64,000 bases of DNA from an uncultured Acidobacteriota bacterium (GCA_963757335.1 CAVWRJ010000011.1:71700-135699); one strand, 5' to 3'; counted from the stretch's first letter, positions 121 through 12,721 are shown. The notes: generated from the letters alone by a model not told the origin. Translations and numbers: made by a program.

Positions 121-154
121 GGGGGTAGGTGTTCTTTCGGGTAATACGAGTGCG

Positions 155-436: not shown

Positions 437-440
437 GGCG

Positions 441-674: not shown

Positions 675-1347
675 GATCGTCTCCTTTGTCGTTGAGAATT
701 TGTGCGCCTTTCTTTATGACCTTCGTCACGACGCCCTGGATCGAAAAGCCGGGGCCGACGAGGATCGGGCGGTAGTGGGACTGGGAAGATTCCGGCTTCA
801 AGACCCAATAGTCCGGGAGGCGAGCCAGCTTCTTCACGGTCGCCTCGCCATCCACATGGGCGACGACGATTGCTCCGGGATCGGCTACGGTCTGTTGGCG
901 TACTAGGACAAGATCCCCGTCCTCGATCCGCTCCCCGGCAACTACGGCCCGGTCCATAGATTGGCCGTGGACACGGAGGAGGAAGAACTGGCCCGACTTC
1001 GGGGAGAGGTCCTCTACGGGAAGTTGGAGCCAGCCGTCGTAGCGCTGTTCGGCGAGGTCGAGTCCGCCGGCGGTAACGCGACCCAGGACCGGTACCGGGC
1101 GGGTCTCTGGCCCGCCAGAGGGCCGGCGGAGCACCTGGATGCCCCGAGCGCCGGGAGCGCGGCGGATGAAGCCGCCGTCTTCGAGCTCCTGGAGGTAGCG
1201 GAGGACGGTGCGGCTCGAACCAACGCCGAGGGCCTGGCGGAACTCCTCGATGGTCGGCGCTCTGCCATGCTGGATCGCATAGCGCTCCAGGGCGGCGAGG
1301 ATCTGTTCGGGTTGGTAGGTTCGTTGTCTGCCCATACGATTAGCCAT
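667..1347 (-). CDS. lexA: LexA-type transcriptional repressor (S24 peptidase, autocleaving)
   Basis: N-terminal wHTH (ILAALERYAIQHGRAPTIEEFRQALGVGSSRTVLRYLQELEDGGFIRR), catalytic Ser in GQSM and Lys in VKKL typical of LexA/S24. ORF track frame extends to 1374; likely start is MANR (1347) or MGRQ (1335). Confidence 0.85.
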   Translation of the reverse strand: MANRMGRQRTYQPEQILAALERYAIQHGRAPTIEEFRQALGVGSSRTVLRYLQELEDGGFIRRAPGARGIQVLRRPSGGPETRPVPVLGRVTAGGLDLAEQRYDGWLQLPVEDLSPKSGQFFLLRVHGQSMDRAVVAGERIEDGDLVLVRQQTVADPGAIVVAHVDGEATVKKLARLPDYWVLKPESSQSHYRPILVGPGFSIQGVVTKVIKKGAQILNDKGDDHG

Positions 1348-1646
1348 ATGACCATGGATTTGTACCACAGGCATGGTCTATTCTAGAGCACACTTCTCCC
1401 CTCGTCAAGAGACGGGAGCCGTTGTCTGTCTTGGCTGAACCGAGGATCACCTCTCCTCAAAGCATGGAAGGAGAGTCAGAGGAAGACGGTTCTAGCTGCC
1501 GCCTTGACAGCGGGCCTTTCTCCACGAAGTTCGAACCTTTTTGGCTGATACGGAGTCAGAAGAAAAGCTAGGAAAGATACGGCAATTGATGGAGGGTAGT
1601 CAAAGGAGACCAGGAAGTCGGAATCAGGGCAAGGCGGCGTGAGCTG

Positions 1647-1874
1647 CTAGAAGAGCGCCTTGAACTCGTCCTCTGTCATCCCGCTCTGGCGGATGATGGC
1701 TCGCACGGTGCCGCGGGGCAGGTCGCCATGGTGCATGGGAACCACGGTGCGGAGCTTCCGCTCGGGATGGACGAGGAGGAGGTGGCTCGTGCGGTGCTGG
1801 CGGTGTTCGATGAAGCCAGCTTGCTTCAGCGCCTTGACTATTTGCTTCGCGGTGAGGCTCCTGAGGTGCTCCAT
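1647..1874 (-). CDS. hicA: type II toxin-antitoxin system HicA family toxin
   Basis: MEHLRSLTAKQIVKALKQAGF...RQHRTSHLLLVHPERKLRTVVPMHHGDLPRGTVRAIIRQSGM matches the HicA/YcfA signature (GSHH..HP...VP.H..L..GT...I..Q.G). The upstream extension of the ORF-track frame is non-coding-like. Confidence 0.8.
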   Translation of the reverse strand: MEHLRSLTAKQIVKALKQAGFIEHRQHRTSHLLLVHPERKLRTVVPMHHGDLPRGTVRAIIRQSGMTEDEFKALF

Positions 1875-2107
1875 GCTGCCGGGGCTTGGATTTGGACAAA
1901 AGCATCGGCAGAGAGGGTGTCCTCGGGGATGGGCAGGCCGTCGTCGGCCAGGGAAGATAGGTAGAGCTCGATGGCTTCGTGGGCCATCTGGACAGAGTGC
2001 TCGTAGTCGCGGCCCCAGGTAACGCAACCCTGGAGGGCGGGAACGGTCACGGTATATCCCCCTTCGGGCTCGGGGGTAAGATGGATACGATAGGTGAGGG
2101 TGTTCAT
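1838..2107 (-). CDS. hicB: type II toxin-antitoxin system HicB family antitoxin (UPF0150)
   Basis: MNTLTYRIHLTPEPEGGYTVTVPALQGCVTWGRDYEHSVQMAHEAIELYL is classic HicB/UPF0150 N-terminal fold; 3' end overlaps the hicA start. Confidence 0.8.
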   Translation of the reverse strand: MNTLTYRIHLTPEPEGGYTVTVPALQGCVTWGRDYEHSVQMAHEAIELYLSSLADDGLPIPEDTLSADAFVQIQAPAAWSTSGASPRSK

Positions 2108-2473
2108 TGCATTCTTATTCTACCCTTCGGAGATGAAGGGTCAAGGAAGAGACGACTCTTGACGGTTTCGATAGCTTCAGCCGTTCAAAGCGAGGTACCT
2201 GCTCGCACCGCGCCATCAGGCTCGCGGGTACTCTTCAAGGGTCGAAGCCTATCGTGCGCCTGAGACTCGCCGCCCCATCTTCCCTAACAGGCTGCTGAAG
2301 ACTCAGTGCATCTCCATTACTCGATGCCAGATTGTCTCCCCAAGCACCTGCTTGTCGGACTGGCCCGACTCGGACGTGAATGCGAGTTTTCAGCAGCCTG
2401 CGACACCAAGTGTCCGGCGTCGAAAAAAGTAACAACTTATACTCACCGGCGACGCTGGCTTGGCCACCGATTA

Positions 2474-3607
2474 TCAACCTGGCTCGCCAAGAAAGAATAT
2501 CTTCGCCACCTCGCCCAAAGTCTGGTTGCACCTCCATGCATCACTAACTGGCGATGCCCCGGTTTCGAGTCGGCTTCCCGGTGCCAATCTCATTGGAACA
2601 CCACCATAGTCGCTATGAACCTTGTCGAGGCCGAGCTTGTAGATCCCGATGTTGTTAATCGCAGCACCTACGAAGTTCGCATATACACCTGGTCGAGTGT
2701 TCGTCGTCACCTCTGATAGAGGTCGAGGTTCAGAAGCGCCTCTTGCCATATCAGGAGATGAGATCCTCCCTAAAAGCACCAAAGCCGAACGATATTGTCT
2801 TACAAAGATGGATTCTGAAGCAAGTTGCACATTCGGACCTATCAAATTCGTACCTGGATGAACAGCCTTAGAGCCAAAGTCTCCGAACGCTTCATAGGCA
2901 TCAAGGTTAGCCCGAAACTTTTCGAACCGGCTGGCACTGATTAGTTCAAGCATAGATGTAAGAGCGCTGGTAACGTCCTTGGTCGTCATCTTACCGCTAA
3001 TGGAAGCACGCAGGGGGCTTTCATTTTTGACCAACTTACTTCCTTTCACGCCAACAGGCGGTGGAAGCACCCCAAGAGGAGAGCCGAGGTCAACCAGCGA
3101 CGGATTAAGATCAGTAATGCTAGCCCCAATCGGGGAAAAGATCGGTTCTGGCTTGGTCGTGGAGCTGGCTAGCCTAAGCTCAAACCCAACCTCATAGGAC
3201 ATCTTGGATTCGAGCGGAGAGACTGTGGCTCGTACTACCGAACCGTATGAAGGGCTCAGTGGATCAAGGTCTCGCAGTCGCACGTCCCAGCTTCCATCGA
3301 TGGTCCCCTCTGGATTAAATTCCTCACGACCTTCGAGGCAGATTGGGATAGAACTCTTATTGGTATTCTCGTCTCCCAAAGCAAAGAGATAGCGGAACAC
3401 TTGGTTGCTGCGAGGCTGTAGGTGATCCTTTGCACAGATATGCTCCACTCTGCTACCAGATAGTGTCACACCGTACCCGCCAACGGGTTGGCTGGAACGA
3501 TAGACTTCGATTCGATAGTAAGGATCTCCCCTCCTGAGATCAGTTACGTCTAGCTGAGATACGTTGCCATCGTTGCAGACGCTAATACCGACTTGACCAA
3601 GTCCCAT
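2474..3607 (-). CDS. hypothetical protein (377 aa), lower-GC orphan gene inside mobile element
   Basis: Long ORF in a visibly AT-richer island (about 2.3-3.7 kb); no recognisable catalytic motifs; Ser/Gly/Pro-rich. Confidence 0.55.
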   Translation of the reverse strand: MGLGQVGISVCNDGNVSQLDVTDLRRGDPYYRIEVYRSSQPVGGYGVTLSGSRVEHICAKDHLQPRSNQVFRYLFALGDENTNKSSIPICLEGREEFNPEGTIDGSWDVRLRDLDPLSPSYGSVVRATVSPLESKMSYEVGFELRLASSTTKPEPIFSPIGASITDLNPSLVDLGSPLGVLPPPVGVKGSKLVKNESPLRASISGKMTTKDVTSALTSMLELISASRFEKFRANLDAYEAFGDFGSKAVHPGTNLIGPNVQLASESIFVRQYRSALVLLGRISSPDMARGASEPRPLSEVTTNTRPGVYANFVGAAINNIGIYKLGLDKVHSDYGGVPMRLAPGSRLETGASPVSDAWRCNQTLGEVAKIFFLGEPG

Positions 3608-3814
3608 AGTGTCCTCCTTCGCCTAAGCGTTTCTCTGGCAAGGCACGATTGCCAGCCATACGTCATCACATCATTGCAACAAGTGCAACTCTAACATTCC
3701 AATATGAGCATGTGTGCCTGTCGGTTACGCCTGGCAGATTGTCTGACGTATTGAAATAAGAGGACTATGCTCCAACAAGAAAACATAGTGTTAGCATCGC
3801 TTGTTAGTTACCTG

Positions 3815-4825
3815 CTAAGGCGAAAAATCGCGGATCGAAACTGCGAGGTGAGATGGAAGTGGCTCAGGAATAAGGCGCATCTCCTCACCCCGTCCATTCA
3901 CCCACTCGTGCGCCAGGAGGTCCCCGCGGCCAAGTCTTTCCTCGTCTGTGAAGAGAAAGAGGCGCGAGCCGACGCCGAGTGACCGGCACGCCTCGACCAG
4001 GTGCCCCACCCGCTCCTTCGTCGTCGTGACTGTCAAGATCCGGAAGTTCGGGATACCGAGGTGCGTCTTGTGGAGCCCTTGCCGCCAGGTCTCCCGGTAC
4101 GCGAGGAGCTTGCGGAGGAAAGAAGTCTGCTCAAGCCCCCTCCGCGCTACCGGCATCGTACCCCGGTCCGCTTCGAGGAAGAAGAATGCCCGATTCCTGT
4201 TCTCCGGCTGCCCATCGAATCGTAGCCCGAAGACCCGATCCGGCTCCACGCCCAAGCGGTGGGTCTTTTCGTCCCTACGCACATCGACCTGCCAGCGGAA
4301 GAGAAGCTGAAGACGTTGGGTCGTTTCCGGCACCCCGGCGAGCACTTCCTCGGCCTGGATTATCCGCACCCCCTCGCGCCTCCTGCAAGCTACCTCAAGG
4401 GCCACCATGACCTGGGCGACCGCGAGCGTGTGATGGAGGAAGACGCGGGAGAGGTTCCGGTTCTTCGTGTCCCAGCGGACGCCGCCCCGGCTCACCCGGG
4501 CCTCGGGCGCGAGAATCTCCGCGCCCCGGTTTCCGAGCGCATAGACCATGGGCTCCGAGCCCCGGGCATACCAGTCTAGCTGCATCGGCGGGCGATCGAG
4601 GTAGCCATGGTGAAAGAGGAGCTGCAAGCGGCGGAGCGTCGTTTGAGGACTCCCTCCCGCAAGAGCGACGAGATGCGTGGAGCGCAGAAGCCGATGCCGG
4701 TAGACGGCGCGAAGGATATCGATGTCGCGGAGCGTAAGGACGATGCCGCGCACCGGAGCGCGCTTGAAGCGCGGCTGGCGATTCTGGAGGTGAGCCATCG
4801 GATGAGCGTACGCGCCACCCGACAC
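3815..4825 (-). CDS. replication-relaxation family protein (Replic_Relax, N-terminal wHTH)
   Basis: LTLRDIDILRAVYRHRLLRSTHLVALAGGSPQTTLRRLQLLFHHGYLDR matches the Replic_Relax N-terminal pattern (LT.RD..IL..v..hR.l...ql..L......a.rRL..L...GlldR). Sits directly downstream of the HerA/TraD-like ATPase, as in actinomycete-type integrative elements. Confidence 0.7.
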   Translation of the reverse strand: MSGGAYAHPMAHLQNRQPRFKRAPVRGIVLTLRDIDILRAVYRHRLLRSTHLVALAGGSPQTTLRRLQLLFHHGYLDRPPMQLDWYARGSEPMVYALGNRGAEILAPEARVSRGGVRWDTKNRNLSRVFLHHTLAVAQVMVALEVACRRREGVRIIQAEEVLAGVPETTQRLQLLFRWQVDVRRDEKTHRLGVEPDRVFGLRFDGQPENRNRAFFFLEADRGTMPVARRGLEQTSFLRKLLAYRETWRQGLHKTHLGIPNFRILTVTTTKERVGHLVEACRSLGVGSRLFLFTDEERLGRGDLLAHEWVNGRGEEMRLIPEPLPSHLAVSIRDFSP

Positions 4826-4843
4826 TCCAGAAAGGCGGCGGCG

Positions 4844-6124
4844 TCAGCCGCCCATCCATCTCATGATCCTCCCTTCCACCTCCTCCCTCGGCCGGCCATA
4901 CCGCTCCCTTGATTGCCGCATCACGGCCTCCTGCCGTCCCGTACTCATACCCCGGACGGGCGCGAGTGTCGTTCCCCGGAACGGCTCCATCGCCCGGCCA
5001 TGTTCGAGGATCCGCGCATAGATCTCGTGCTTCCCCAAGGAGACAAGGTTCCCCATCTTCACGTCGCCGCCGAGCTCGTCTTCCAAGAGGCGGGCGTCGG
5101 ACTGCCCCACCCGGAAGGCGATGAGGTTGCCGACATTGCCGAATACGCTTTGCCGGATCTCGTCGGTCAGCTGATCCAGGTACTGGTGGGCGAGGACGAG
5201 GGCAAGGCCGTATTTCCGGGCCTCCGCAAGGATCGAGGTCAGGGCCTCGGTCGCGAAGCTTTGGAACTCGTCTATATATAGATAGAAGGGGGTGCGGGGT
5301 GCCGCTGTCGGATTTGCCCGTTGCATTGCCGCCCATTGAAACTGCGAGAGAAGAAGGGCTCCGAGGAGCCGCGAATGGTCTTCGCCCACGACCCCTTTCG
5401 CGAGATCGGCAATCATGATCCGGCTATGGTCCATGAGGAAGCCCGCGTCGAAGCGGTTCCTCGCCTGGCCGAAGACGTTCCGGATCGGCGCATTCGCGAG
5501 GAGCCGCCCGATCTTGTTTTGGATCGGGGCGATGGCTTCGAGGCGGAAGCGGCGCTCGTAGCGCGCGTATTCCTCCCTCCAAAAAGCGCGGACGACTGGG
5601 TCCTTGATCCTGGCCGTTACGCGCTCCCGGAAGGCGTCGTCCGCGAGAAGCCGGGGCAGGGCGAGGATCGTGAGCCCGCCGTGGTCCATGAGTGCCGCGA
5701 GGGCATGCCCCAGGATGTATTCCATCCGGGGTCCCCAGCTTCCGCCCCAGATCCCGCGGAATGCGGAGAGCACGCCGGCTACGACGAGGTGCTCGTGGTC
5801 CCGCGGCACCTTGGGCAAGAGGTTCAGGCCCACGGGATGCGCGAGATCGCCCGGATTGAAGTACAAGACCTCGTTCGTCCGCGAGCGGGGTACGAAGTCC
5901 AGGATCTCCCGGGCGAGGTCGCCGTGCGGATCGAGGAGTCCCACTCCGCGCCCGGCATAGAGGTCCTGGAGGATGAGGTTCCGGAGAAGCGTGCTCTTGC
6001 CGAGGCCGGTTTTCCCCACGATATACAAGTGCTGCGCCCGGTCCTCGGGCGCGAGGAGAACGAGCTTCTCCTCGGGAGAGACCCAGTACGTGCGGGTGCC
6101 GAGCGCAATGGGAGTGTGGTCCAT
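4844..6124 (-). CDS. HerA/FtsK-superfamily (TraD/type IV coupling protein-like) DNA-translocase ATPase
   Basis: Walker A GKTGLGKSTLL, LDPHGDL motif, Walker B FYLYIDEFQ, LALVLAHQYLDQL and NLIAFRVGQSDA motifs; paralogous to the ATPase at 23509-26496. Likely start MDHT (ORF-track frame extends to 6184). Confidence 0.75.
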   Translation of the reverse strand: MDHTPIALGTRTYWVSPEEKLVLLAPEDRAQHLYIVGKTGLGKSTLLRNLILQDLYAGRGVGLLDPHGDLAREILDFVPRSRTNEVLYFNPGDLAHPVGLNLLPKVPRDHEHLVVAGVLSAFRGIWGGSWGPRMEYILGHALAALMDHGGLTILALPRLLADDAFRERVTARIKDPVVRAFWREEYARYERRFRLEAIAPIQNKIGRLLANAPIRNVFGQARNRFDAGFLMDHSRIMIADLAKGVVGEDHSRLLGALLLSQFQWAAMQRANPTAAPRTPFYLYIDEFQSFATEALTSILAEARKYGLALVLAHQYLDQLTDEIRQSVFGNVGNLIAFRVGQSDARLLEDELGGDVKMGNLVSLGKHEIYARILEHGRAMEPFRGTTLAPVRGMSTGRQEAVMRQSRERYGRPREEVEGRIMRWMGG

Positions 6125-6667
6125 GTGAGTGGTAGTTGCGCCCTGCCTCTCTTCCCCTCCCCGTGGGGAGCCAGTCCTCCCCAAGCGGGGAGGAACCGCA
6201 GAGGCCCCTGTCCTGGCGGCCGGCGGTTACGCCCGCATCAAGGAGTTGGTGACCGAGCGGGCGCGGTAAGAGAGGTGGGCGCGGGAGAGTGTGGCGCGTT
6301 TTGACCTCACGGCAAAGGCGGAGAAGTTCGACGCCGTGGCAGTAGTGGCGCCTGCGGCGCCGACCCTTCGTTTGCCAGTCCCCACCGCTGTTGGGCAGGC
6401 CGAATTTCGGCCGGTGGGCCCGACTCGCGCGCTTTGGTCGAAGGGTCCTGCGATAGCGGAAAGACCCGAGACCCGTTAGCCGTCAGGAAAACGCGCGAGT
6501 CGGGCGCAGCCCGGCAGCGGTGGGGAGCCAGTTTATGAAGCCCCGTATGGGGATTCGGCCGTCCGCCTTTGGCGGAGCCCCTACATACCTTGTATGTACC
6601 AGGGTATGTACTTGCGTGAGTGCCGTTTCCTTGAAGGATCACAACAAAGACTTGCATTTTTGTCTTG

Positions 6668-7630
6668 CTACTTAGCGTTCTTCCGCCTTGGGTTTTTTAT
6701 GTGAGGAGTCAATGTGCGGATGTAGTCCTCGACATTAGCGGCGTTTTCCTTGAGCTTGATGGGTGGTGCAATGGGTGCCTCGCTCACCCACTTACTGAAT
6801 TCCGGTATAGAAAGGTCCACCATGGCGCGGAAGGAATCCCGGTACTCACGGTAGGCGGGCAGGCTTAGCCGGTAAAAAATTACAAAAGCTGCAATCCCGA
6901 AGAGTGCGATCTGAAAGGCAAGCTTCGCACTCTCCGCCGGAATGAGCCACACATGCTCTAAGCAGCGGCCCCTAATCACATTGAATAGGAGAACCAAGAA
7001 GGCAACGATAGCGATACCAGCGCCCGCAGCGGAGCTCAAGAGTATTGATTCAGCGATGCTAGATTTCTCATCAACTTCAGCCCGGCTTTCCTCAGAAGCC
7101 AAGAAAATCAGATGGTTCCAGAAAAAAATTGTATCAATTCCGTAGATATTTTTAGGATATAGCTCATAGCTTGCGATGAGATTTCCAAGCCGAGTTGGCC
7201 TCTCCGCCTCAAAAATATAGGTGTCGCCATCGGCTCGGTAGGGAAAATCAGCGAGATAGCTCTGAATGCGTTCTACCTCGGGACTTTTTTGCTTGCCTTG
7301 GTTGTATAGTTCGCGCATTCTCTCCTGACGCAACCTTACTTGCCGAGAGTTCCAAGCCTTAGCTGGAAGAGTAAGCCAAGATAGACGAAAGCCTTCGTAA
7401 ACATAGAAAATAGGCCTCGCTGCGCTTGAGATAAGGAAACCAAACAGGATTACCTCGATCAGGAAAACGACATTCTGATCAAGGTCTATAGGCTTAGTGA
7501 ACGCAGCGACAATAGCGAGAGGCTTGTAGGAGTGAAGACCAACGGCAGCTACTAGGCCAGGCAAGAACATACGCCGCAGTTGCGCACCGCTGAATCCGGC
7601 GGAGGTACTAACTCCTTCACTTTCGGCCAC
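6668..7630 (-). CDS. hypothetical membrane protein (about 4 TM helices: 2 TM, soluble region, 2 TM), lower GC
   Basis: Hydrophobic segments LPGLVAAVGL / VVFLIEVILFGFLISSAA / AGAGIAIVAFLVLLF / LAFQIALFGIAAFVIFY; AT-richer than surroundings; last gene of a 3-gene operon. Confidence 0.55.
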   Translation of the reverse strand: MAESEGVSTSAGFSGAQLRRMFLPGLVAAVGLHSYKPLAIVAAFTKPIDLDQNVVFLIEVILFGFLISSAARPIFYVYEGFRLSWLTLPAKAWNSRQVRLRQERMRELYNQGKQKSPEVERIQSYLADFPYRADGDTYIFEAERPTRLGNLIASYELYPKNIYGIDTIFFWNHLIFLASEESRAEVDEKSSIAESILLSSAAGAGIAIVAFLVLLFNVIRGRCLEHVWLIPAESAKLAFQIALFGIAAFVIFYRLSLPAYREYRDSFRAMVDLSIPEFSKWVSEAPIAPPIKLKENAANVEDYIRTLTPHIKNPRRKNAK

Positions 7631-7976
7631 GGGTTCCCCCCGAAGACCCGGACGTCTTTTTTCCTCTCGTAGGAGTAGATCCTCCAGAAGGCACTGGCCC
7701 CTTAGCTCCTGGAGGTTTGGAAGGAGGTTCCGAAGGTCGCTTCGGGCCTGCGGCAGCTATAGCGGGAGCCCTTAGGGTCTGTCTCTCCCCTAGAGCCTTC
7801 GAAACAGGCTTTCTGGTTCGAGCCGGTACTACGATTTTTTCCACATCGCTTTTGGAAGGAACTGGTGATCGCTTCTCGGTCGTTCTCTTTCTTTTCAATT
7901 TTTTTCTAATAGTGCTTAGGTGATCGCGTCGCTTAGGCGAAGTAGTGTCCGGCGACACTTCCGAGTCGCTAGCCAT
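7617..7976 (-). CDS. hypothetical lysine/arginine-rich low-complexity (histone H1-like, probably disordered) protein
   Basis: 119-aa ORF rich in K/R/P/S/T (KKLKRKRTTEKRSPVPSKSD...GKKTSGSSGGTRGRK); 3' end overlaps the downstream membrane-protein gene by 14 nt; could also be an out-of-frame artefact. Confidence 0.35.
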   Translation of the reverse strand: MASDSEVSPDTTSPKRRDHLSTIRKKLKRKRTTEKRSPVPSKSDVEKIVVPARTRKPVSKALGERQTLRAPAIAAAGPKRPSEPPSKPPGAKGPVPSGGSTPTRGKKTSGSSGGTRGRK

Positions 7977-8260
7977 TAAGTATGCTGAAGGGCTATCACG
8001 GGAATTCCCGTTGCCTTTGAGATCTCGCTGGGACTCCGAAATTTGAGGAGTCCGTACGGGTCGCTCTCCACCTTGCGAAAGAATTTCTCCAAGTTCTTGT
8101 GCACTTTACGCAAATGAGACAAGAGGGCTAGGAACTCGTCCGCGCTAATGGTGCCGGACTGAGTCTGGCCAACTGCTAACTGCGGTCTTCCATCTTCAGG
8201 CATGGTCAAATCCTTTCGACGCTTCGTCGAAATCATAATAATTCCTGCGGGAATGCGCAA
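7976..8260 (-). CDS. hypothetical small protein, first gene of the low-GC 3-gene operon (start may be internal Met at about 8236 or 8203)
   Basis: ORF track; AGGA-type RBS before internal ATGs; stop abuts the start of the next gene. Confidence 0.4.
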   Translation of the reverse strand: MRIPAGIIMISTKRRKDLTMPEDGRPQLAVGQTQSGTISADEFLALLSHLRKVHKNLEKFFRKVESDPYGLLKFRSPSEISKATGIPVIALQHT

Positions 8261-8397
8261 CCATATACGCCCTCTCCAACATGAGGATATTTACATTACG
8301 CACAAGGCAGCCCTCTGCACCGCCTTTTGTCGCTCCTTCTCCCCCGTACTCTGAGATCCGGTCCTTCAAAACCCATTTCAGAGAAAGGAAGAGTGCG

Positions 8398-8706
8398 ATG
8401 CAGATAGTGATACCCCGGTTCCGGGTGGGATGGCTCGTCATGACACCCGCCGCGCTTTTGGCGCTCCTTGAGGCAGAAGAAGATCCAAAGACCTTCGTCG
8501 CCCGCCACCTCGCAGGCGATTGGGGCGATGTCGGCCCCGAGGAGTGGGCGAGGAATGAGTACGCCGCGACCCACGGCGAGCGGATCGTCTCGGTCTTCCA
8601 CACCCGCCACGGCCGTGAGCTCTCCCTCGTGACTGAGGGCAACCGGTACGCCACAACGATGCTCATGCCCGAGCCTGAACCTCTGGAGCGAAAGGAGAAC
8701 CCATGA
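8398..8706 (+). CDS. hypothetical small acidic Trp/Gly-rich protein (conjugative-element leading-region type)
   Basis: MQIVIPRF...MTPAALLALLEAEEDPKTFVARHLAGDWGDVGPEEWARNEYAATHGERIVSVFHTRHGRELSLVTEGNRYATTMLMPE; stop overlaps the next ORF start (ATGA); ORF-track frame opens at 8281. Confidence 0.5.
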   Translation: MQIVIPRFRVGWLVMTPAALLALLEAEEDPKTFVARHLAGDWGDVGPEEWARNEYAATHGERIVSVFHTRHGRELSLVTEGNRYATTMLMPEPEPLERKENP

Positions 8707-8951
8707 AGCCTGCGACCCGCGAAGAAGCGAACCACGAAGCCTCGAAGCTCGACAGTCTCGCGGAGACCTGCGGCCTCTCGGTCACCTCGTTCATCGAGGA
8801 GTATGCCCTCGAAGACGTAGTACCCGGGATCTGCATGAACCCGCACTGCGACTTCACGGCCGAGTACGAGCCCGACCAGCGCGAGGGCTGGTGCGAGGAG
8901 TGCGGGACCGGAAGCGTCCGGAGCGGCATCTCCCTTGCCGGCCTCATCTAG
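8703..8951 (+). CDS. hypothetical zinc-ribbon protein (CxxxxC ... CxxC)
   Basis: 82 aa with CMNPHC and CEEC pairs; translationally coupled to the upstream ORF. Confidence 0.5.
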   Translation: MKPATREEANHEASKLDSLAETCGLSVTSFIEEYALEDVVPGICMNPHCDFTAEYEPDQREGWCEECGTGSVRSGISLAGLI

Positions 8952-9002
8952 GCCCCACCCTCTCCCCCACTTCCAACCCAAGAGACAAAAGGAGGTCCGC
9001 CT

Positions 9003-9902
9003 ATGGCGACCATAGAAGCTCGTGCCGTGGCCCGCGAGAGGGTCACCGCTATCGCCCATGACATCCTCGCCGCCTTCGAGTCCGGGGAGCTGCCCCAGGC
9101 ACTCGCAAAGCTCTTCATCCACCGGAAGATCGAAGTGCCCTCGAAGCACTGGACCTGGACGAATCGCTTGATCGGCATCCGGAAGGGCCACATCTATGCC
9201 GCCGGCTTCAGGCAGTGGCAGGAGATCGGGAGGAAGGTGCGGAAGGGCCAGCACGCCTTCCATATCCTCGCCCCGAAGATCCTGAGGGCAAAACAGGACG
9301 ACGAGGAACGCGGGGTGAAGGAGGGCGACCTCCTCTGCCTCCGGTTCCTCGCAGTCCCCGTCTTCGGCTATCTCCAGACCGAGGGTGAGCCCCTGCCCGG
9401 AGCGGAAGACGAGCCGGAGTTCGTGGGTCAGCTGCCCCTCGTCGAGGTCGCCCGCTCCTGGAACCTCGCAGTCGAGGTCTACTCCCAGCCCGATGCTCCC
9501 GACCGCCTGGGCTTCTTTGCCGCCGGCCGGGGCATAGGGCTCGGGGTCCGGAACCTCCAGACCTGGACGCACGAGCTCGTGCACGCCGCCGACCATCGGC
9601 TCGGGTGCCACCCGCGGCCGGGCCTCGACGCGGAGGTGGTCGCCGAGTTAGGCGGGGCGATCCTCCTCGAATGCCTGGGGGAGACGGTCGAGAGCGACCG
9701 CGGCGGCGCCTATGAGTATCTCCGGCGGCACTGCGAAAAGGAGAAGCGGAACCTCCTCGGGGCCTGTACCGAGCTTCTCGACCGCACCTGTGCCTGCGTC
9801 ACGCTCATCCTCCAGACCGCGGATGCCCTCACGGGAGAAGCAGTCGGGCCGGAGACACCACCTCCGGCCGCGGTGCCTGCCGTGGCCGCACTCTCTGCCT
9901 AA
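9003..9902 (+). CDS. ardC: ArdC-like anti-restriction protein (ssDNA-binding ArdC-N domain plus HExxH zincin-like metallopeptidase domain)
   Basis: N-terminal KHWTWTNRLIGIRKGHIYAAGFRQWQEIGRKVRKGQHAFHI resembles the ArdC/DUF1738 ssDNA-binding domain; C-terminal HELVHAADH is an HExxH metalloprotease motif. Confidence 0.75.
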   Translation: MATIEARAVARERVTAIAHDILAAFESGELPQALAKLFIHRKIEVPSKHWTWTNRLIGIRKGHIYAAGFRQWQEIGRKVRKGQHAFHILAPKILRAKQDDEERGVKEGDLLCLRFLAVPVFGYLQTEGEPLPGAEDEPEFVGQLPLVEVARSWNLAVEVYSQPDAPDRLGFFAAGRGIGLGVRNLQTWTHELVHAADHRLGCHPRPGLDAEVVAELGGAILLECLGETVESDRGGAYEYLRRHCEKEKRNLLGACTELLDRTCACVTLILQTADALTGEAVGPETPPPAAVPAVAALSA

Positions 9903-10045
9903 AGTACCTTTCTCGCATCTCCAGCGAATCACATCTACTCCCCCAGGATCTTTCCTGGGGGTTTTCTTTTGGGAAAGCTCGCTGCCACCTGGGAAGGAAG
10001 CCTTTGCCTCTCTCGATCGGTACCCGAAAAGTGCTCGGTCCTAGG

Positions 10046-12721
10046 CTAGAACGAGAGGCGCACGCCGACCTCGTAGCTTCGGGGCTGCGTGAAGCCAATC
10101 GCGCCGCCCCAGGGTATCTCGCCGCAACCCGAGACGTTCTCGCAGACGCTTGTGACCTGCTCGGTACCGAGTAGATTCAGGACGGTAGCGATAAGCGAGC
10201 TCTTCACCGTGCCGAGCGCGAAGCCTTTGCGAATCTCGATGTTCGCGCTGTACGTGCCACTTCCGTGGAAGCTACCGCGCGGCGCGAGGTACTCGAGGTC
10301 GCCCAACGCCGGCGTCACCTTGCTGTATGGGAAGGGCGAAGAGTAGGTGCTCTGGATGCCGAGACTCCAGTCGTGCGGCAGGCGCACGTAGCCATCGAGG
10401 CGAACGCGGTGCCTCCGGTCGTCCGAGAGGTAGCCGTAGCGGTTCACGAAGAGGGTCGGATAAACGTCGAAGTCGGGGCCAGCGTTCTGGGTGTATTCGA
10501 TGCTGCCGCGCGACGTGGAATAGACGTAGGAGGCGCGGAGGTCGAGCCAGTCCGCAGGGTGGCTCACGAGAGTGAGGAGCACGCCCTCATAGTCGCGCTT
10601 TGCGGCTGGGAGGTTCGCGACCTCGAAGATCGGGCAGTTCGTTCCGTTCGGATCGGGGGTCGGACTCGGGACGTTCTCCGCGCAGGTATCCTCGAAGATG
10701 TTGTTGGTTTTCTTGTGGATGTATGACACCTCGACCGAGGTGCGGTTCCCGAGCTCACGCTCGATGCCCACCGTGTACTCGGTCGTGGTCGTGGGCTTCA
10801 GGCCAGGCTGGATGATCTCCGGAGACGATCCCATCTCGTTATATTCAAAGTATCCCAAGGGATCGCGGTGCAGCGGGTCGCTCGCGAGGTAGCCCGCCGC
10901 GCCGAAAGGGCCACCCGCCCTGCACGCGGCCGCATTCGGGAAGAAGGCCGAGCACGGCAGGTAGGTGAAGACCGGCGCGCTGTTCGTCCGGGTGTAGAAC
11001 GGCAAGGAAAGTCCGTTCGGCGACATGAAGATGCCGTAGCTCCCCCGGAGCGCGGTCTTCGCATCGCCCGTGAGGTCGAGGGCAAAGCCGAGACGGGGCG
11101 CGAGGACATGCTGACGCGCAATCTGAACTCTGGCGTCGTTCCGGAAGCTGACTTCGTCGTAGCGCATGCCGAGCTGGAGCGTGAGGGGCGCGAGCGGCCG
11201 CCAGGCATCCTGCACATAGGCGGAGTCGAGCGTGCCTGCAAAACTCGCGAAGCCGCGCGGCTCCTGGAGCATGAGAAACGCACGTTTGTCGATCGGCCCG
11301 TTGAAATCTTGATATGTCGTGCCGCCCGCAAGGTCGTTTTCCACGCGGAAGCGCAGGTTGCTCCTTCCGGCGCCGAGCTTCCATTCATGGCTCCCGGCGA
11401 GTTCCGCAACGAAACCGCTGAGGCTTGCGTGTACCTCGTCGCGGTCGCGCTGCGAGAACTGGACGTTCGCGTAATTCACCGAGGTGACACCCGTCGCCTG
11501 GTCGGCGATCCCCGGGGTCGCAAGGTCGCCGCTCTGCGGGAATCGGTTTATCGGATCGCGCTTCGCGCCGGCGAGAAGCTCCGCGAGGAGCCCCGGCCCG
11601 AGGAGGCCCGAGACCTCGGCCTGGCGGATCGGGCCGCCCTGCTCTTGGATGGCCGCCGCGGCTGGTTCGACGAATCGGTTGGCGTTGTAGTTACGGACCT
11701 CCGCCGGGTCGGCGGCGTACTTCATGACGGCGTGCCAGCGCGGATCGATTTGCCAGTTCAACTTCGCGAGCTCGTTCCGGCCCCTCGTCGTCTTCGTAAT
11801 CACCGAGCCGGTCGGCGTCGACTTGCTGCTTGCGAGGTCAAGCGCGCCGAAAAACCATAGCCGGTCGCGCAGGATCGGACCGCCAAGAGTCGCGGTCGGC
11901 TTCAGAAACGCTGTTTCGTTCGCGTCGCGATTGAAGTGGGCGCCGTTCTCATTGAATTGGCTCGCGTTGTATCGCGTGTCAAGCGTGCCGGAGAACTCAT
12001 TGCCGCCCGACTTCGTAACGATGTTTATGACACCCCCTGAAGCGTGCCCGAACTCCGCGGCGAAGCCGGCGGTCTCAAAGGAGATCTCGGCGATGGCGTC
12101 GAAATTCACGGTGGCAGAGAAGGTTGCGGTTACGGGGTCCGTGGTCTCCATGCCGTCTATGTAGTAGGCGTTCTCGCCCGCGGTCGAACCGAAGATCCGC
12201 GGATCGCCCGTGCCGTTGTCGGCGCCCGCCGCGCGGCCTACGACCGAGAGGTAGTTACGGCTCTGGGTGCCGACCGAGGTACGGTCGAGGTATTCGCCCG
12301 AGTAGACGCTGCTCATCCCGGCACGTGTGACATCGACGACCGGCGGGCCGGTCGTAACCGTTATCGATTCGGCAAGCCGGCCGAGTGCGAGGGTCGGCAG
12401 GACTTCGGTCGCACGGTCGAGGGCAACCGCGACCGCGGTGAAGTCCTTGGTCTCGAAACCCGCGAGTTCGAAGCGCACGTCGTAGGCGCCGGGAGGGAGG
12501 TGAGGGAAGGAGAAGGTGCCATCGGGTCTTGTCCGGGTCGTCTGCGGGCCGCCAATAAGGGCAGGTGAAGCGATGGCGACGGCCACGCCGGAGAGGGCGC
12601 TTCCCTCCGCGTCCCTCACCGTGCCGATGAGGCGGCCAGTCGTGCCCTGAGCCAAGACCGGGGCTACCGTCTGGAGCGCAAGCGCGGCGGCGAGAGTACC
12701 AAGGAGCAGCCAGGCTTTCAT
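10046..12721 (-). CDS. TonB-dependent outer-membrane receptor with N-terminal carboxypeptidase-regulatory-like domain
   Basis: Signal peptide MKAWLLLGTLAAALALQTVAPVLAQG, then GRLIGTVRDAEGSALSGVAV (CarboxypepD_reg-like), plug/barrel region, C-terminal aromatic (...VRLSF). Confidence 0.85.
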   Translation of the reverse strand: MKAWLLLGTLAAALALQTVAPVLAQGTTGRLIGTVRDAEGSALSGVAVAIASPALIGGPQTTRTRPDGTFSFPHLPPGAYDVRFELAGFETKDFTAVAVALDRATEVLPTLALGRLAESITVTTGPPVVDVTRAGMSSVYSGEYLDRTSVGTQSRNYLSVVGRAAGADNGTGDPRIFGSTAGENAYYIDGMETTDPVTATFSATVNFDAIAEISFETAGFAAEFGHASGGVINIVTKSGGNEFSGTLDTRYNASQFNENGAHFNRDANETAFLKPTATLGGPILRDRLWFFGALDLASSKSTPTGSVITKTTRGRNELAKLNWQIDPRWHAVMKYAADPAEVRNYNANRFVEPAAAAIQEQGGPIRQAEVSGLLGPGLLAELLAGAKRDPINRFPQSGDLATPGIADQATGVTSVNYANVQFSQRDRDEVHASLSGFVAELAGSHEWKLGAGRSNLRFRVENDLAGGTTYQDFNGPIDKRAFLMLQEPRGFASFAGTLDSAYVQDAWRPLAPLTLQLGMRYDEVSFRNDARVQIARQHVLAPRLGFALDLTGDAKTALRGSYGIFMSPNGLSLPFYTRTNSAPVFTYLPCSAFFPNAAACRAGGPFGAAGYLASDPLHRDPLGYFEYNEMGSSPEIIQPGLKPTTTTEYTVGIERELGNRTSVEVSYIHKKTNNIFEDTCAENVPSPTPDPNGTNCPIFEVANLPAAKRDYEGVLLTLVSHPADWLDLRASYVYSTSRGSIEYTQNAGPDFDVYPTLFVNRYGYLSDDRRHRVRLDGYVRLPHDWSLGIQSTYSSPFPYSKVTPALGDLEYLAPRGSFHGSGTYSANIEIRKGFALGTVKSSLIATVLNLLGTEQVTSVCENVSGCGEIPWGGAIGFTQPRSYEVGVRLSF

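What the first reader, a model, noticed from the sequence alone, without database searches (positions are those of the whole stretch)
6668..8260. Low-GC three-gene operon: small protein, histone-H1-like K/R-rich disordered protein, 4-TM membrane protein
The three genes are tightly overlapping on the minus strand in an AT-richer islet inside the element. Their architecture pairs a small possible regulator or DNA-binding protein and a highly basic low-complexity protein with a membrane protein of 2 TM, about 120 soluble residues, then 2 TM. That resembles membrane-effector abortive-infection or entry-exclusion modules but matches no family I can name.
Basis: inference. Interest (0 to 1): 0.55.

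Follow-up and report, generated by a model that had tools for sequence, protein, structure and literature searches.

The report
Split adaptor gene plus membrane protein cassette
The three small overlapping genes are really a two-gene cassette, with the first gene split by a one-base deletion: a DNA-binding, very basic protein carrying a short proline-rich motif, and a four-helix membrane protein from a large family that no database describes, riding as fast-evolving cargo on a mobilisable element, with its function still untested.

Summary
Three minus-strand ORFs (8203/8260..7976, 7976..7617, 7630..6668) overlap by 1 and 14 nt in an islet of GC 0.51, against 0.65 for the flanks. ORF2 is 25% K+R (pI 11.7). 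ORF3 is 2 TM, a 115-aa cytoplasmic domain, then 2 TM.

ORF1 and ORF2 are halves of one gene. Relatives on the same element family encode a single 185-188 aa protein: a MerR-type HTH plus a basic Pro-rich tail. The window lacks the G of a conserved CGA codon, giving ...CAG C-A TAC TTA ATG. An independent assembly shows the same split.

ORF3 belongs to a large unannotated family (716 clusters at 50% identity, several phyla). It has no Pfam, NCBIfam, PADLOC or PDB match, despite a confident AlphaFold model.

Almost every family member follows a small gene. That gene's head varies (basic peptide, H1-like repeats, cold-shock domain, HTH, TerD, M4 peptidase, zinc ribbon), but it keeps a short motif: GPHRPPKPP, GPKRP, PHGxGGG or GHTSPGP. 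The motif lies upstream in 22 of 26 loci, against 5% expected.

The cassette has low GC, diverges far faster than the element backbone, and sometimes sits beside toxin-antitoxin, Lamassu or caspase/CHAT genes. My best reading is a variable adaptor docking on a constant membrane effector, as a conflict or addiction module. This is inferred, not shown.

The parts
7976..8203 (-). ORF1: the N-terminal fragment (75 aa from ATG 8203; alternative starts are ATG 8236 and TTG 8260) of the adaptor gene. It carries helix 1 and a truncated recognition helix of a MerR/Xis-type HTH (…SEISKATGIPVIALQHT*).
   Evidence: Searches give the ORF. It aligns with the N-terminal halves of the single 185-188 aa proteins of L001 and L003. 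The L003 protein hits Pfam MerR_1 at 22.9 bits against a cut-off of 21.6. An AAGGA Shine-Dalgarno sequence lies 7 nt before ATG 8203. Gene callers produced 75-aa and 86-aa versions in two assemblies.
7983..7984 (-). Frameshift site. One base is missing between these two positions: the G of a CGA Arg codon in the conserved L-Q/H-R-Y-K motif. This creates the stop TAA at 7978-7976.
   Evidence: L003 reads CTTCAGCGATATAAG and L001 reads TTGCACCGATATAAG. The window reads CTTCAGC-ATACTTAATG. Restoring one base gives a protein collinear with both relatives over its whole length. There is no slippery heptamer or homopolymer at the site. The same split is present in a Logan assembly of run ERR11571141.
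7617..7976 (-). ORF2: the C-terminal half of the adaptor (119 aa). It is a disordered, basic, Pro/Ser/Gly-rich tail. Its ATG overlaps the ORF1 stop (TAATG), so it can still be made by termination-reinitiation.
   Evidence: It is homologous to the C-terminal halves of the L001 and L003 partners (AAAGPKRPSEPPSKPP vs AAAAKRPPTPLNRPP vs AASPKRPQSPFSHAP). No own Shine-Dalgarno sequence is visible. Neither public annotation calls it as a gene.
7710..7748 (-). Family motif inside ORF2: G77-P-K-R-P-S-E-P-P-S-K-P-P89. This is the window's version of the G-P-[H/K/R]-R-P-P-x-P-P motif, the proposed docking peptide.
   Evidence: P[HKR]RP occurs in the 300 nt upstream of the membrane gene in 22 of 26 non-redundant loci, against 5% of random windows (binomial P = 4e-25). 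Between L015 and L032 the motif is kept through synonymous changes (13 synonymous-only vs 7 non-synonymous codon differences in 52 codons).
6668..7630 (-). ORF3: a 320-aa inner-membrane protein (GTG start, GGGGGA Shine-Dalgarno). It is the constant component of the cassette and belongs to a large unannotated family.
7061..7405 (-). Cytoplasmic helical domain of ORF3 (residues 76-190), between TM2 and TM3. It is aromatic-rich (18 F/W/Y).
   Evidence: Hydropathy, charge distribution (K+R 16 in this loop and 12 in the C-tail, against 1-2 in the short loops) and AlphaFold helices support it. The topology is N-in, loop-in, C-in by the positive-inside rule (inference).
7112..7198 (-). Most conserved segment of the family (residues 145-173): PTRLGNLIASYELYPKNIYGIDTIFFWNH. 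It is the proposed binding cradle for the partner's polyproline motif.
   Evidence: Invariant or near-invariant residues are T146, G149, N150, E156, Y158, Y163, D166 and W171 in 21 close sequences and 73 distant sequences. Its role as a binding site is inference.
6185..6667 (-). Context, not part of the cassette: a conserved non-coding spacer between ORF3 and the T4CP gene. It contains the hairpin/repeat TACATACC-CTGG-TACATAC-AAG-GTATGTA at about 6578-6610. It marks the boundary of the cargo slot and may be an oriT or a promoter.
   Evidence: It is 84% identical to the equivalent spacer of L003. There is no Rfam match.

Best explanation
The locus is a two-gene cassette carried as cargo on a small mobilisable element.

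**Gene 1, the adaptor.** It has a MerR/Xis-type helix-turn-helix head and a histone-H1-like basic, proline-rich disordered tail. The tail contains the short family motif G-P-K/H-R-P..P-P. In this window a 1-nt deletion has cut the gene into ORF1 (a crippled HTH) and ORF2 (tail plus motif). ORF2 can still be translated through the TAATG stop-start overlap, and it then resembles the head-less 'basic peptide + motif' partners seen in most relatives.

**Gene 2, ORF3.** This is a four-helix inner-membrane protein. Its large, aromatic-rich loop between TM2 and TM3 and its C-tail face the cytoplasm.

**Proposed mechanism.** The partner's polyproline motif docks on the conserved YE.YP..YG.D..FxW surface of ORF3. 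A nucleic-acid-binding protein is thereby coupled to a membrane protein with conserved acidic or polar residues in TM2 and TM3. I think the membrane protein is the constant effector and the variable partner is its sensor or inhibitor. Nucleic acid from an invader, or loss of the unstable partner, would release or activate the effector and perturb the membrane. That would make it an abortive-infection or addiction-type conflict module.

**Shown:** gene structure, frameshift, family size, motif conservation, variable-head/constant-tail layout, topology prediction, cargo-like composition and divergence.

**Inferred:** physical docking, membrane-effector activity, and a role in defence or addiction.
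For: **Single-gene ancestry**
- L001 and L003 encode one 185-188 aa protein where the window has ORF1 plus ORF2.
- The deletion is pinpointed, and the repaired protein is collinear with both relatives.
- The split is seen in a second assembly.

**Cassette conservation**
- A small same-strand gene ends between 4 nt inside and 73 nt before the membrane gene in nearly all loci.
- The motif is present in 22 of 26 loci against a 5% background.
- The small ORF shows coding-level constraint.

**Variable head, constant tail**
- Heads include basic peptides, H1-like AKKA repeats (L040, L043), a cold-shock domain (L041; CSD E = 9e-27), MerR HTH (L003), TerD and an M4 peptidase.
- In Streptomyces, a helical protein, the TerD protein and the M4 peptidase all end in GHTSPGP..D..DEW.
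- The tail type tracks the membrane-protein clade in the loci examined (PHRPP in the Acidobacteriota clade; PHG.GGG in the two loci read from the MKLPF clade; GHTSPGP in the three Streptomyces plasmid loci with an upstream partner gene). This fits co-evolving contact partners.

**Membrane protein**
- The model is confident, and the charge distribution puts the conserved aromatic domain in the cytoplasm.

**Conflict-like behaviour**
- GC is lower than the rest of the locus in 8 of 9 loci.
- Between the window and L001/L003 the backbone is 71-94% identical (T4CP 90/83%, relaxase 78%). ORF3 is only 61-64% identical and the partner about 27%.
- Neighbours include HicAB, BrnTA, PIN, IS110, integrases, Lamassu-like SMC proteins and a UvrD/GajB-like helicase.
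- CHAT or caspase genes lie directly downstream, or nearby, in actinobacterial and Nostoc plasmids.
Against: - No member hits any PADLOC model, and no homologue is found in phage collections.
- Several loci sit among ordinary metabolic genes. No third gene recurs.
- The defence-neighbour signal rests on a minority of 17 distinct loci, has no formal background control, and is partly inflated by a duplicate locus (L008 = L017).
- Binding of the motif to ORF3 was not tested. Complex prediction was not possible with the tools available.
- Heads such as the M4 peptidase or TerD do not bind nucleic acid, so 'nucleic-acid sensing' cannot be the general rule.
- The window copy carries a frameshift and may be partly or wholly inactive.
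- Fast divergence could reflect cassette exchange rather than diversifying selection.
Confidence: 0.4

Rival explanations
1. Classical toxin-antitoxin (addiction) module. ORF3 would be a membrane toxin. The upstream protein would be a labile antitoxin: its HTH autoregulates the operon and its disordered tail wraps the toxin. The role would be to stabilise the mobile element rather than to defend against phage.
For: - The order is antitoxin-like gene first, with overlapping stop and start codons.
- A DNA-binding head plus a disordered tail is the canonical type II antitoxin layout (established knowledge). L003 has a MerR_1 HTH.
- The cassette sits on mobile elements next to other TA pairs: HicAB in the window and L001, BrnTA and PIN in L038.
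- It has low GC and a patchy distribution.
Against: - Partners of 30-40 aa with no DNA-binding fold, and partners that are a 389-aa M4 peptidase, a TerD protein or a cold-shock protein, are not antitoxin-like.
- A frameshift that truncates the antitoxin head would be expected to be lethal or strongly selected against if ORF3 were a potent toxin. Yet ORF3 is intact.
- There is no hit to any TA family in Pfam or NCBIfam.
Confidence: 0.2
2. Transfer accessory of the element. The DNA-binding adaptor and the membrane protein would tether the element's DNA or relaxosome, and its TM-less coupling ATPase, to the membrane. Alternatively they would act in entry exclusion.
For: - In the window and in L003 the cassette lies on the same strand, directly upstream of the conserved spacer and the T4CP-relaxase genes.
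- The T4CP has no N-terminal transmembrane segment (sequence). Its Walker A motif lies at about residue 57.
- L042/L043 sit beside a T4SS gene set.
Against: - Most family members are not on conjugative or mobilisable elements and have non-DNA-binding partners.
- In L001 the cassette has moved to a different place in the element.
- It evolves far faster than the transfer genes and has a different GC.
- The element encodes no mating-pore genes, so classical entry exclusion has nothing to act on.
Confidence: 0.12
3. The small upstream ORF would be a cis-acting leader peptide rather than a partner protein. Its proline-rich motif would stall ribosomes (EF-P-dependent or arrest-peptide-like) and so tune translation of the membrane gene.
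For: - Many partners are only 30-60 aa and contain PP and PPP runs (one locus has PPPPPPPPPPP). They end 0-70 nt before, or overlap, the membrane gene start.
- The amino-acid sequence of the motif is under constraint.
- Polyproline stalling and RAPP-type arrest peptides are established phenomena (general knowledge).
Against: - In distant clades the motif sits at the C-terminus of full-size folded proteins (CSD, TerD, M4 peptidase) and is Gly-rich or acidic rather than polyproline: PHGPGGG, GHTSPGPENDPDDDW.
- The distance from the motif to the downstream start varies from about 40 to 130 nt.
- The basic H1-like and HTH heads have no role in this model.
Confidence: 0.08
4. Peptide export or immunity. 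The cationic proline-rich peptides would be antimicrobial-peptide-like products, comparable to PrAMPs, and the membrane protein would be their exporter or immunity factor.
For: - Peptides such as MAKRKGSRKNGGAHRPPRPPKRPPKPPKKRSS resemble proline-rich antimicrobial peptides in composition (the resemblance is recalled from general knowledge).
- One protein with the shared tail is an M4 peptidase, a class that is often extracellular.
Against: - There is no signal peptide, leader-cleavage motif, ABC or peptidase partner, or modification enzyme.
- The conserved domain of ORF3 is predicted to be cytoplasmic.
- Cold-shock, HTH and TerD heads are cytoplasmic proteins.
- The Foldseek match to the PrAMP importer SbmA is not significant (E = 0.46, TM 0.2).
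Confidence: 0.06
5. In this particular window the cassette would be a decaying remnant. The frameshift has inactivated the adaptor, and the locus has no current function.
For: - The 1-nt deletion truncates the HTH recognition helix.
- ORF2 has no Shine-Dalgarno sequence of its own, and no gene caller predicts it.
Against: - ORF3 is full-length with every family-invariant residue intact.
- ORF2 keeps an ATG exactly overlapping the ORF1 stop (TAATG), has an open frame to the normal C-terminus, and retains an intact motif.
- Head-less basic partners are the norm elsewhere in the family, so the split product is a viable architecture.
Confidence: 0.12

Closest known systems
Type II toxin-antitoxin modules with an HTH antitoxin and a disordered toxin-binding tail (e.g. 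HigBA, HipBA, MqsRA)
   Same: It is a two-gene operon with a small DNA-binding gene first and overlapping stop and start codons. The tail is intrinsically disordered. It sits on mobile elements among other TA pairs, and its distribution is patchy with atypical GC.
   Different: The downstream protein is a 320-aa four-helix membrane protein with no similarity to any toxin family. The partner heads are extremely diverse (peptide, H1-like, CSD, TerD, M4 peptidase). Toxicity and neutralisation are untested.
MotA/ExbB/TolQ/PomA stator proteins and the Zorya defence protein ZorA
   Same: MotA shares the layout of two TM helices, a roughly 100-aa cytoplasmic helical domain, two more TM helices and a cytoplasmic tail. 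These proteins are the top, though non-significant, Foldseek hits. There are conserved acidic or polar residues in the membrane helices.
Membrane-associated conflict systems of Kaur, Burroughs, Iyer and Aravind 2020 (PMC7159879), e.g. 'System 4' EACC1 + caspase, and SLATT 2TM effectors
   Same: The logic is a constant membrane component paired with a highly variable partner. A subfamily recurs next to caspase or CHAT genes on actinobacterial and cyanobacterial plasmids. TerD and peptidase domains appear among the partners.
   Different: EACC1 is a single-TM domain encoded 5' of the caspase. Here the constant part is a 4-TM protein encoded 3' of the variable gene. There is no Pfam hit to SLATT, EACC1 or EAD families. 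The family was not found in the passages of that paper that I searched by keyword.
Encapsulin cargo-loading peptides (a functional analogy only)
   Same: Unrelated upstream proteins share a short conserved terminal peptide, and the constant partner is encoded immediately downstream. This suggests a portable docking tag.
   Different: The constant partner here is a membrane protein, not a capsid-like shell. There is no sequence or fold relationship. This analogy is recalled from general knowledge and was not tested.
Histone-H1-like lysine/alanine/proline repeat tails (chlamydial Hc2, PhaF/AlgP-type tails)
   Same: The composition and likely non-specific nucleic-acid binding of ORF2 match, as do those of partners such as L040 (AKKAAPAKKAA repeats) and L043.
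   Different: The best Pfam HC2 score is 23.3 bits against a cut-off of 40, so the resemblance is compositional only. These tails additionally carry the family motif and are coupled to a membrane-protein gene.
Entry-exclusion proteins of conjugative elements (Eex, TraS)
   Same: They are inner-membrane proteins on mobile elements that diverge much faster than the backbone.
   Different: The element lacks mating-pore genes. Most family members are not on conjugative elements, and there is no sequence similarity.

Membership tests
MotA/ExbB/TolQ stator family (and ZorA) | Sequence match to the MotA_ExbB profile | tested here: not met
   There is no Pfam or NCBIfam hit for ORF3 or for 73 diverse family members.
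MotA/ExbB/TolQ stator family (and ZorA) | Significant structural similarity to solved stator subunits | tested here: not met
MotA/ExbB/TolQ stator family (and ZorA) | Adjacent MotB/ExbD/ZorB-type single-TM partner with a conserved Asp | tested here: not met
   The adjacent partner has no hydrophobic segment.
Type II toxin-antitoxin module | A bicistronic, translationally coupled operon with a small upstream gene | tested here: met
   The window has 1-nt and 14-nt overlaps. In relatives the gaps range from -4 to +73 nt.
Type II toxin-antitoxin module | The upstream protein has a DNA-binding domain plus a toxin-binding tail | tested here: inconclusive
   A MerR_1 HTH is detected only in L003 (22.9 bits vs 21.6). 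L001 and the window score below threshold. Most family partners lack any DNA-binding fold.
Type II toxin-antitoxin module | The downstream protein is toxic and is neutralised by the upstream protein | not testable with these tools
   This requires expression experiments.
Known anti-phage defence systems (PADLOC-DB v2) | A match of any component to a defence-system profile | tested here: not met
   There are no hits for the three ORFs. Among the 73 family members the only hit is a single weak match (Csx27, E = 0.0069) in one member.
Known anti-phage defence systems (PADLOC-DB v2) | Enrichment in defence islands | tested here: inconclusive
   Lamassu-, MADS-, SEFIR/TIR-, GajB- and DRT-type hits occur among 142 neighbouring ORFs from 17 distinct loci. 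They are in a minority of loci, there is no background control, and one locus is duplicated.
SLATT / EACC1 membrane components of conflict systems | A match to SLATT_1-6 or EACC1 profiles, with a 2-TM or 1-TM architecture | tested here: not met
   There are no Pfam hits. ORF3 has 4 TM helices. The EACC1 description comes from PMC7159879.
MerR / HTH_17 (excisionase-like) DNA-binding domain, for ORF1 | A profile match above the gathering threshold, with an intact recognition helix and wing | tested here: not met
   Neither window ORF1 nor the repaired ORF1+2 has an HTH hit. The homologue L003 does. ORF1 stops inside the recognition helix.
Histone H1-like nucleoprotein HC2 (PF07382), for ORF2 | A profile match above the gathering threshold | tested here: not met
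   ORF2 has no hit. The related partner in L040 scores 23.3 bits against a cut-off of 40. The resemblance is compositional.
   There is no Pfam, NCBIfam or PDB profile hit. Transporter structures appear in Foldseek only at E > 0.4.

The most novel reading that the evidence does not exclude
The cassette would represent an undescribed, phylum-spanning class of membrane-linked conflict system built on a portable docking tag.

- A short P-H/K-R/G-P peptide could be appended to almost any sensor or effector head: H1-like DNA binder, cold-shock domain, HTH, TerD, metallopeptidase or zinc ribbon.
- The tag would recruit that head to the aromatic cytoplasmic cradle of a MotA-like four-helix ion-conducting protein.
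- Engagement of the head, for example by invading nucleic acid or caspase/CHAT proteolysis, would then gate membrane depolarisation.
- In that reading the window shows the system in evolutionary transition. A single-base deletion would convert an HTH-headed adaptor into the minimal basic-peptide form.
Probability: 0.22. Interest if true: 0.8.

Novelty: new variant of a known kind. Interest (0 to 1): 0.58.

Why it matters
- **Family size.** The membrane protein defines a family of at least several hundred 50%-identity clusters. It occurs in Acidobacteriota, Actinomycetota, Pseudomonadota, Cyanobacteriota and Chloroflexota, including Ralstonia solanacearum megaplasmids and Streptomyces plasmids. 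It has no entry in Pfam, NCBIfam, PADLOC or the PDB.
- **The linked gene.** Nearly every member is preceded by a gene whose only constant feature is a short proline-, histidine- or glycine-rich peptide. This 'variable head, constant tag, constant membrane partner' arrangement is testable. It would add a new way of wiring sensors to membrane effectors in mobile-element and phage conflicts.
- **Annotation.** The small partner genes are systematically missed or mis-framed by gene callers. ORF2 is uncalled, ORF3 is called 104 residues short, and P0025 appears to be translated off-frame.
- **If it is only a toxin-antitoxin variant.** The result is then ordinary but still useful, because it names a new membrane-toxin family.

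Tried and rejected
- **Family scans.** Pfam, NCBIfam and PADLOC scans of the three ORFs gave nothing. Scans of 73 diverse family members gave only single-member chance-level hits. NCBIfam scans of eight partner peptides also gave nothing.
- **Homologue search for the adaptor.** A search with the repaired adaptor found nothing at E <= 0.01 in the 5.8-billion-protein set; it is too low in complexity and too divergent. A PDB profile search with the three-sequence adaptor alignment gave only weak hits, with SoxR (MerR family) at E = 0.8.
- **Viral and phage searches.** None found a relative. The broad alignment A3 was too diverse for pattern-based locus retrieval.
- **Programmed frameshifting.** I rejected this. 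A -1 shift would be needed, and there is no slippery heptamer or homopolymer at the site.
- **Assembly artefact.** I rejected this as the sole cause of the split. A Logan assembly of ERR11571141 shows the same 86-aa call, the same 345-nt uncalled gap and the same 320-aa gene. The two assemblies may share reads, however.
- **Signals in the DNA.** No sigma-70-like promoter was found. Terminator-like sites were at chance level. There are no tRNA genes, no Rfam match in 1-12000 and no flanking direct repeats that would define att sites.
- **Literature.** Searches for the motif strings and for combinations of CHAT, TM, zinc ribbon and defence terms returned nothing relevant.
- **Complex prediction.** Predicting the ORF2-ORF3 complex was not possible.
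Full report
**What is in the sequence**

The three ORFs are present on the minus strand as described: 8260..7976 (94 aa from TTG), 7976..7617 (119 aa) and 7630..6668 (320 aa). ORF1's stop and ORF2's start share a base (TAATG). ORF2 and ORF3 overlap by 14 nt.

The stretch 6668-8260 has GC 0.509, against 0.648 and 0.668 in the flanking genes and 0.655 for the window. Its GC3 is 0.44-0.61, against 0.77-0.81 in the adjacent T4CP and relaxase genes.

ORF2 is 25% K+R and 13% Pro, with pI 11.65. ORF3 has four hydrophobic helices with a 115-residue loop between the second and third.

**Setting**

The islet lies in a small mobilisable element. The element comprises:
- a LexA-like S24 repressor (667-1374);
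- HicA/HicB (1647-2107);
- a second low-GC ORF of unknown family (2474-3607);
- a Replic_Relax protein (3815-4825);
- a TraD/TrwB-like coupling ATPase without transmembrane helices (4844-6184);
- the three ORFs;
- a divergent operon of two small proteins and an ArdC-N-like protein (8281-9902).

A TonB-dependent-type outer-membrane protein gene follows at 10046. There are no tRNA genes and no Rfam matches.

**ORF1 and ORF2 are one gene split by a single-base deletion**

Two related elements were found through homologues of ORF3. They are L001 (an 88.8-kb metagenome contig) and L003 (8.2 kb). Each encodes, directly upstream of the membrane gene, one protein of 185 or 188 aa.
- The N-terminal half resembles ORF1 (…FLRKVHKEL…AEVSQQTGISLPTLQRYK…).
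- The C-terminal half resembles ORF2 (…AAAAKRPPTPLNRPP…).
- The L003 protein passes the Pfam MerR_1 threshold (22.9 vs 21.6 bits) and also touches HTH_17.

At the junction both relatives read C(A/T)(G/C) CGA TAT AAG (Q/H-R-Y-K). The window reads CAG C-A TAC TTA ATG. The G of the CGA codon is missing between positions 7984 and 7983. This turns …ALQRYL… into …ALQHT-stop and shifts the remainder into the ORF2 frame.

With that base restored, the protein is collinear with both relatives from the first to the last residue. There is no slippery sequence or homopolymer at the site, so programmed frameshifting is unlikely.

The same split appears in a Logan assembly of run ERR11571141: an 86-aa call, a 345-nt uncalled gap, then a 320-aa gene. 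Misassembly alone is therefore an unlikely cause.

Two annotation errors follow. The public annotation calls ORF3 as only 216 aa (P0001), although the full N-terminus is conserved in homologues. ORF2 is not called at all.

**ORF3 belongs to a large, unannotated family**

| Search | Result |
|---|---|
| Word-indexed homologue search | 21 full-length relatives at 35-64% identity |
| Exhaustive HMMER scan of 1.84 billion cluster representatives | 716 hits at E <= 1e-3; 253 at 1e-10 |
| Profile search (488 hits at E <= 1e-5; best 120 listed) | every source-given name among those listed is 'hypothetical protein'; source names include Gammaproteobacteria, Sphingomonadales, Hyphomonadaceae and Anaerolineales MAGs |
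| tblastn against plasmids | members on Streptomyces, Rhodococcus and Nostoc plasmids and on Ralstonia solanacearum megaplasmids |
| Species-representative genomes (close relatives) | all Acidobacteriota |

None of 73 diverse members matches a common family in Pfam, NCBIfam or PADLOC; only single-member chance-level hits appear. A family profile finds nothing in PDB sequences.

By charge distribution, the N-terminus, the big loop (16 K+R, 18 aromatic residues) and the C-tail are cytoplasmic. The family's most conserved block lies in that loop: PTRLGN..A.YE.YP...YG.D..F.W, with T146, G149, N150, E156, Y158, Y163 and W171 nearly invariant even across 73 distant members.

**The real constant of the upstream gene is a short motif**

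In nearly every locus with upstream sequence, a small same-strand ORF ends between 4 nt inside and 73 nt before the membrane gene.

In the Acidobacteriota clade these are tiny, very basic peptides built around G-P-H-R-P-P-K/R-P-P. Examples:
- MAKRKGSRKNGGAHRPPRPPKRPPKPPKKRSS (L008)
- MAKKVKRGGKKGSGPHRPPKLPKPTKKVSKSR (L019)
- MAKKGRGIKKAGRPHRPPKPPKKGG… (L016)

Some loci have the motif twice in one ORF (L015, L031, L032), and some have two tandem ORFs (L005, L018, L021).

The window's subclade has G/S-P-K/R-R-P. ORF2 carries AAGPKRPSEPPSKPP at nt 7710-7748.

P[HKR]RP occurs in the 300 nt upstream in 22 of 26 non-redundant loci, against 5% of random 306-nt windows from the same loci (binomial P = 4e-25).

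Between the related loci L015 and L032 the small ORF shows 13 synonymous-only against 7 non-synonymous codon differences in 52 codons. Both PHRPP repeats are preserved through synonymous changes, and the ratio is similar to the adjacent membrane gene at 47:36. The K/R-rich ORF is therefore a real, selected coding sequence.

**The head of the partner is interchangeable**

| Locus or organism | Partner head | Tail or motif |
|---|---|---|
| L040 | H1-like AKKA repeats | …GARRPPPLPPRPPARKK |
| L038 | acidic protein | …DRPKRPIPPP… |
| L041 (28% identity to ORF3) | bona fide cold-shock protein (CSD, E = 9e-27), start overlapping | …SGPHGPGGGVDD |
| Hyphomonadaceae conjugative element (L042/L043) | H1-like, 69 aa | …VPHGSGGGPND |
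| Three Streptomyces plasmids | helical protein, TerD protein, protealysin-like M4 peptidase | all three end in …PGHTSPGP(E/G)..D..DEW |
| Rhodococcus, Nostoc | zinc-ribbon protein; a CHAT or caspase gene follows the membrane gene | …CPTHG… |
| S. goshikiensis | 141-aa protein, sequence not examined; a CHAT gene lies two genes downstream of the membrane gene | not examined |

In Streptomyces sp. NBC_00158 a CHAT gene instead lies upstream of the membrane gene. In the loci examined, the tail type follows the clade of the membrane protein. A portable tail shared by unrelated heads, always next to the same membrane protein, most simply indicates a docking peptide and its receptor. An aromatic-rich conserved surface is what polyproline-binding domains typically use (general knowledge). 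The docking itself was not tested.

**Cargo-like behaviour**

The window, L001 and L003 share a backbone:

| Component | Identity, window vs L001 / L003 |
|---|---|
| T4CP | 90% / 83% |
| Relaxase | 78% (L001) |
| The 82-aa protein | 94% / 71% |
| HicAB | 84-94% (L001) |
| ORF3 | 61% / 64% |
| Adaptor | about 27% |

- The non-coding spacer between ORF3 and the T4CP gene is 84% identical to that of L003, so it is better conserved than the cassette's proteins.
- In L001 the cassette sits at a different position in the element.
- Cassette GC is below the rest of the locus in 8 of 9 loci.
- Neighbours differ from locus to locus and no third gene recurs.
- Some loci have TA pairs (HicAB, BrnTA, PIN), IS110, integrases, a Lamassu-type SMC protein, a UvrD/GajB-like helicase, SEFIR/TIR or MADS components.
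- Other loci sit among metabolic genes.
- This neighbourhood signal is suggestive only. It has no background control, and L008 and L017 are the same locus.

**Interpretation**

*Securely established:*
- the cassette is two genes;
- the frameshift is real in the assemblies;
- ORF2 is coding;
- the family and the motif are conserved;
- the partner has a variable head and a constant tail;
- nothing matches a described family.

*Most likely mechanism (confidence about 0.4).* The adaptor docks through its proline-rich motif on the cytoplasmic domain of the membrane protein. The pair acts as a conflict module. The membrane protein is the constant effector and the partner is its sensor or inhibitor. 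In this element the partner is a DNA-binding one.

The split in the window removes a functional HTH. It leaves a product (ORF2) equivalent to the head-less basic partners that are the norm in Acidobacteriota. The cassette may therefore still work.

*Rivals:*
- a classical addiction-type TA pair (0.2);
- a transfer or membrane-tethering accessory, or entry exclusion (0.12);
- a decaying remnant in this genome (0.12);
- a cis-acting proline-stalling leader peptide (0.08);
- cationic-peptide export or immunity (0.06).

The leader-peptide model is weakened by clades where the motif ends full-size folded proteins and is not polyproline. The transfer model is weakened by the family's wide occurrence off mobile elements and by its divergence from the backbone.

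**Comparison with known systems, and novelty**

The cassette works most like a TA or abortive-infection pair with a membrane effector. It also resembles the 'constant membrane component plus variable partner' systems catalogued by Kaur et al. 2020 (PMC7159879). It fails every membership test I could run: MotA/ExbB, SLATT/EACC1, PADLOC systems, transporter families, and HC2 for ORF2. Searches for the motif strings and related keyword combinations in the paper library found no description of the motif or of the pairing.

I rate it a new variant of a known kind. It is moderately interesting because the family is large, phylum-spanning and unannotated, and because the docking-tag idea is directly testable. 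The function remains inferred.

Noticed in passing
window 6185-6667 (hairpin at about 6578-6610, minus strand): The non-coding spacer between ORF3 and the T4CP gene is 84% identical to the equivalent spacer in L003, so it is better conserved than the cassette's proteins. It contains TACATACC-CTGG-TACATAC-AAG-GTATGTA, a direct repeat plus a hairpin. It is a candidate oriT or the promoter/operator of the T4CP-relaxase operon. There is no Rfam match.
   Followed up: partly
window 4844-6184 (-): The TraD/TrwB-like coupling ATPase has its Walker A motif at about residue 57 and no N-terminal transmembrane helices. The element encodes a Replic_Relax protein but no mating-pore genes, so it looks like a mobilisable element dependent on a helper T4SS.
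   Followed up: partly
window 2474-3607 (-): A second low-GC islet (GC 0.51, GC3 0.49) encodes a 377-aa protein with no Pfam, NCBIfam or PADLOC hit. It may be another cargo gene. L001 carries an unrelated 591-aa unknown protein in its cargo region.
   Followed up: no
window 667-2107 (-): A LexA-like S24 repressor lies at 667-1374. A HicA/HicB toxin-antitoxin pair lies at 1647-2107 and is 84-94% identical to the pair in L001. In L001 that pair sits next to a serine recombinase, which may be the family's integrase. No recombinase was found in the first 12 kb of the window.
   Followed up: partly
window 6668-6760 (ORF3 C-terminal tail): ORF3's own disordered C-tail reads …LTPHIKNPRRKNAK. Close homologues have APHRK, APHKRIPRP and VPHRRK. 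This resembles the partner's P-H/K-R motif and could be an intramolecular mimic (autoinhibition), or it could be coincidence.
   Followed up: no
window 6668-7976; proteins P0001, P0170, P0171: There are three public gene-calling problems. ORF3 is annotated as 216 aa instead of 320 aa. ORF2 is not called in either assembly. The 516-aa family member P0025 has an N-terminal 'EEGRANEDPREEGRAEE' repeat that looks like an off-frame translation of an upstream AKKA-repeat (H1-like) partner gene.
   Followed up: partly
L044, L045 and L047 (Streptomyces plasmids NZ_CP108072.1, NZ_CP108868.1, NZ_CP108710.1): Three unrelated proteins share the C-terminal tail GHTSPGP followed by an acidic stretch: a helical 165-aa protein and a TerD protein ending identically in GHTSPGPENDPDDDWP.ES, and a signal-peptide-less protealysin-like M4 metallopeptidase ending GHTSPGPGGVGDEDEDEDEW. 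Each is encoded 3 nt upstream of a family member. An S8 peptidase or a caspase gene lies nearby.
   Followed up: partly
L048 (Rhodococcus opacus pRho-VOC14-C342), L049 (Nostoc sp. C052 pC052_A), L050 (S. goshikiensis plasmid): A subfamily forms a recurrent cluster: a small upstream protein (a zinc-ribbon protein in L048 and L049; not examined in L050), then the 4-TM family member, then a CHAT or caspase protein of 900-1500 aa. The CHAT or caspase gene follows directly in L048 and L049, and after one intervening gene in L050. This links the superfamily to caspase-based conflict systems.
   Followed up: partly
L042/L043 (Hyphomonadaceae MAG JANRIP010000049.1): Here the cassette lies between a T4SS gene set (TrbI, CagX, VirB8, TrbL, VirB4) and genes with the Pfam CTD6 and MC2 domains.
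   Followed up: no
window 8186-8392: The divergent intergenic region between ORF1 and the plus-strand operon contains a perfect 8-nt palindrome, TTTCGACG-N3-CGTCGAAA, at 8214-8232, which lies inside the 5' end of the longer ORF1 versions. It also has weaker inverted repeats. These could be operator sites for the HTH adaptor. No sigma-70-like promoter was detected.
   Followed up: no
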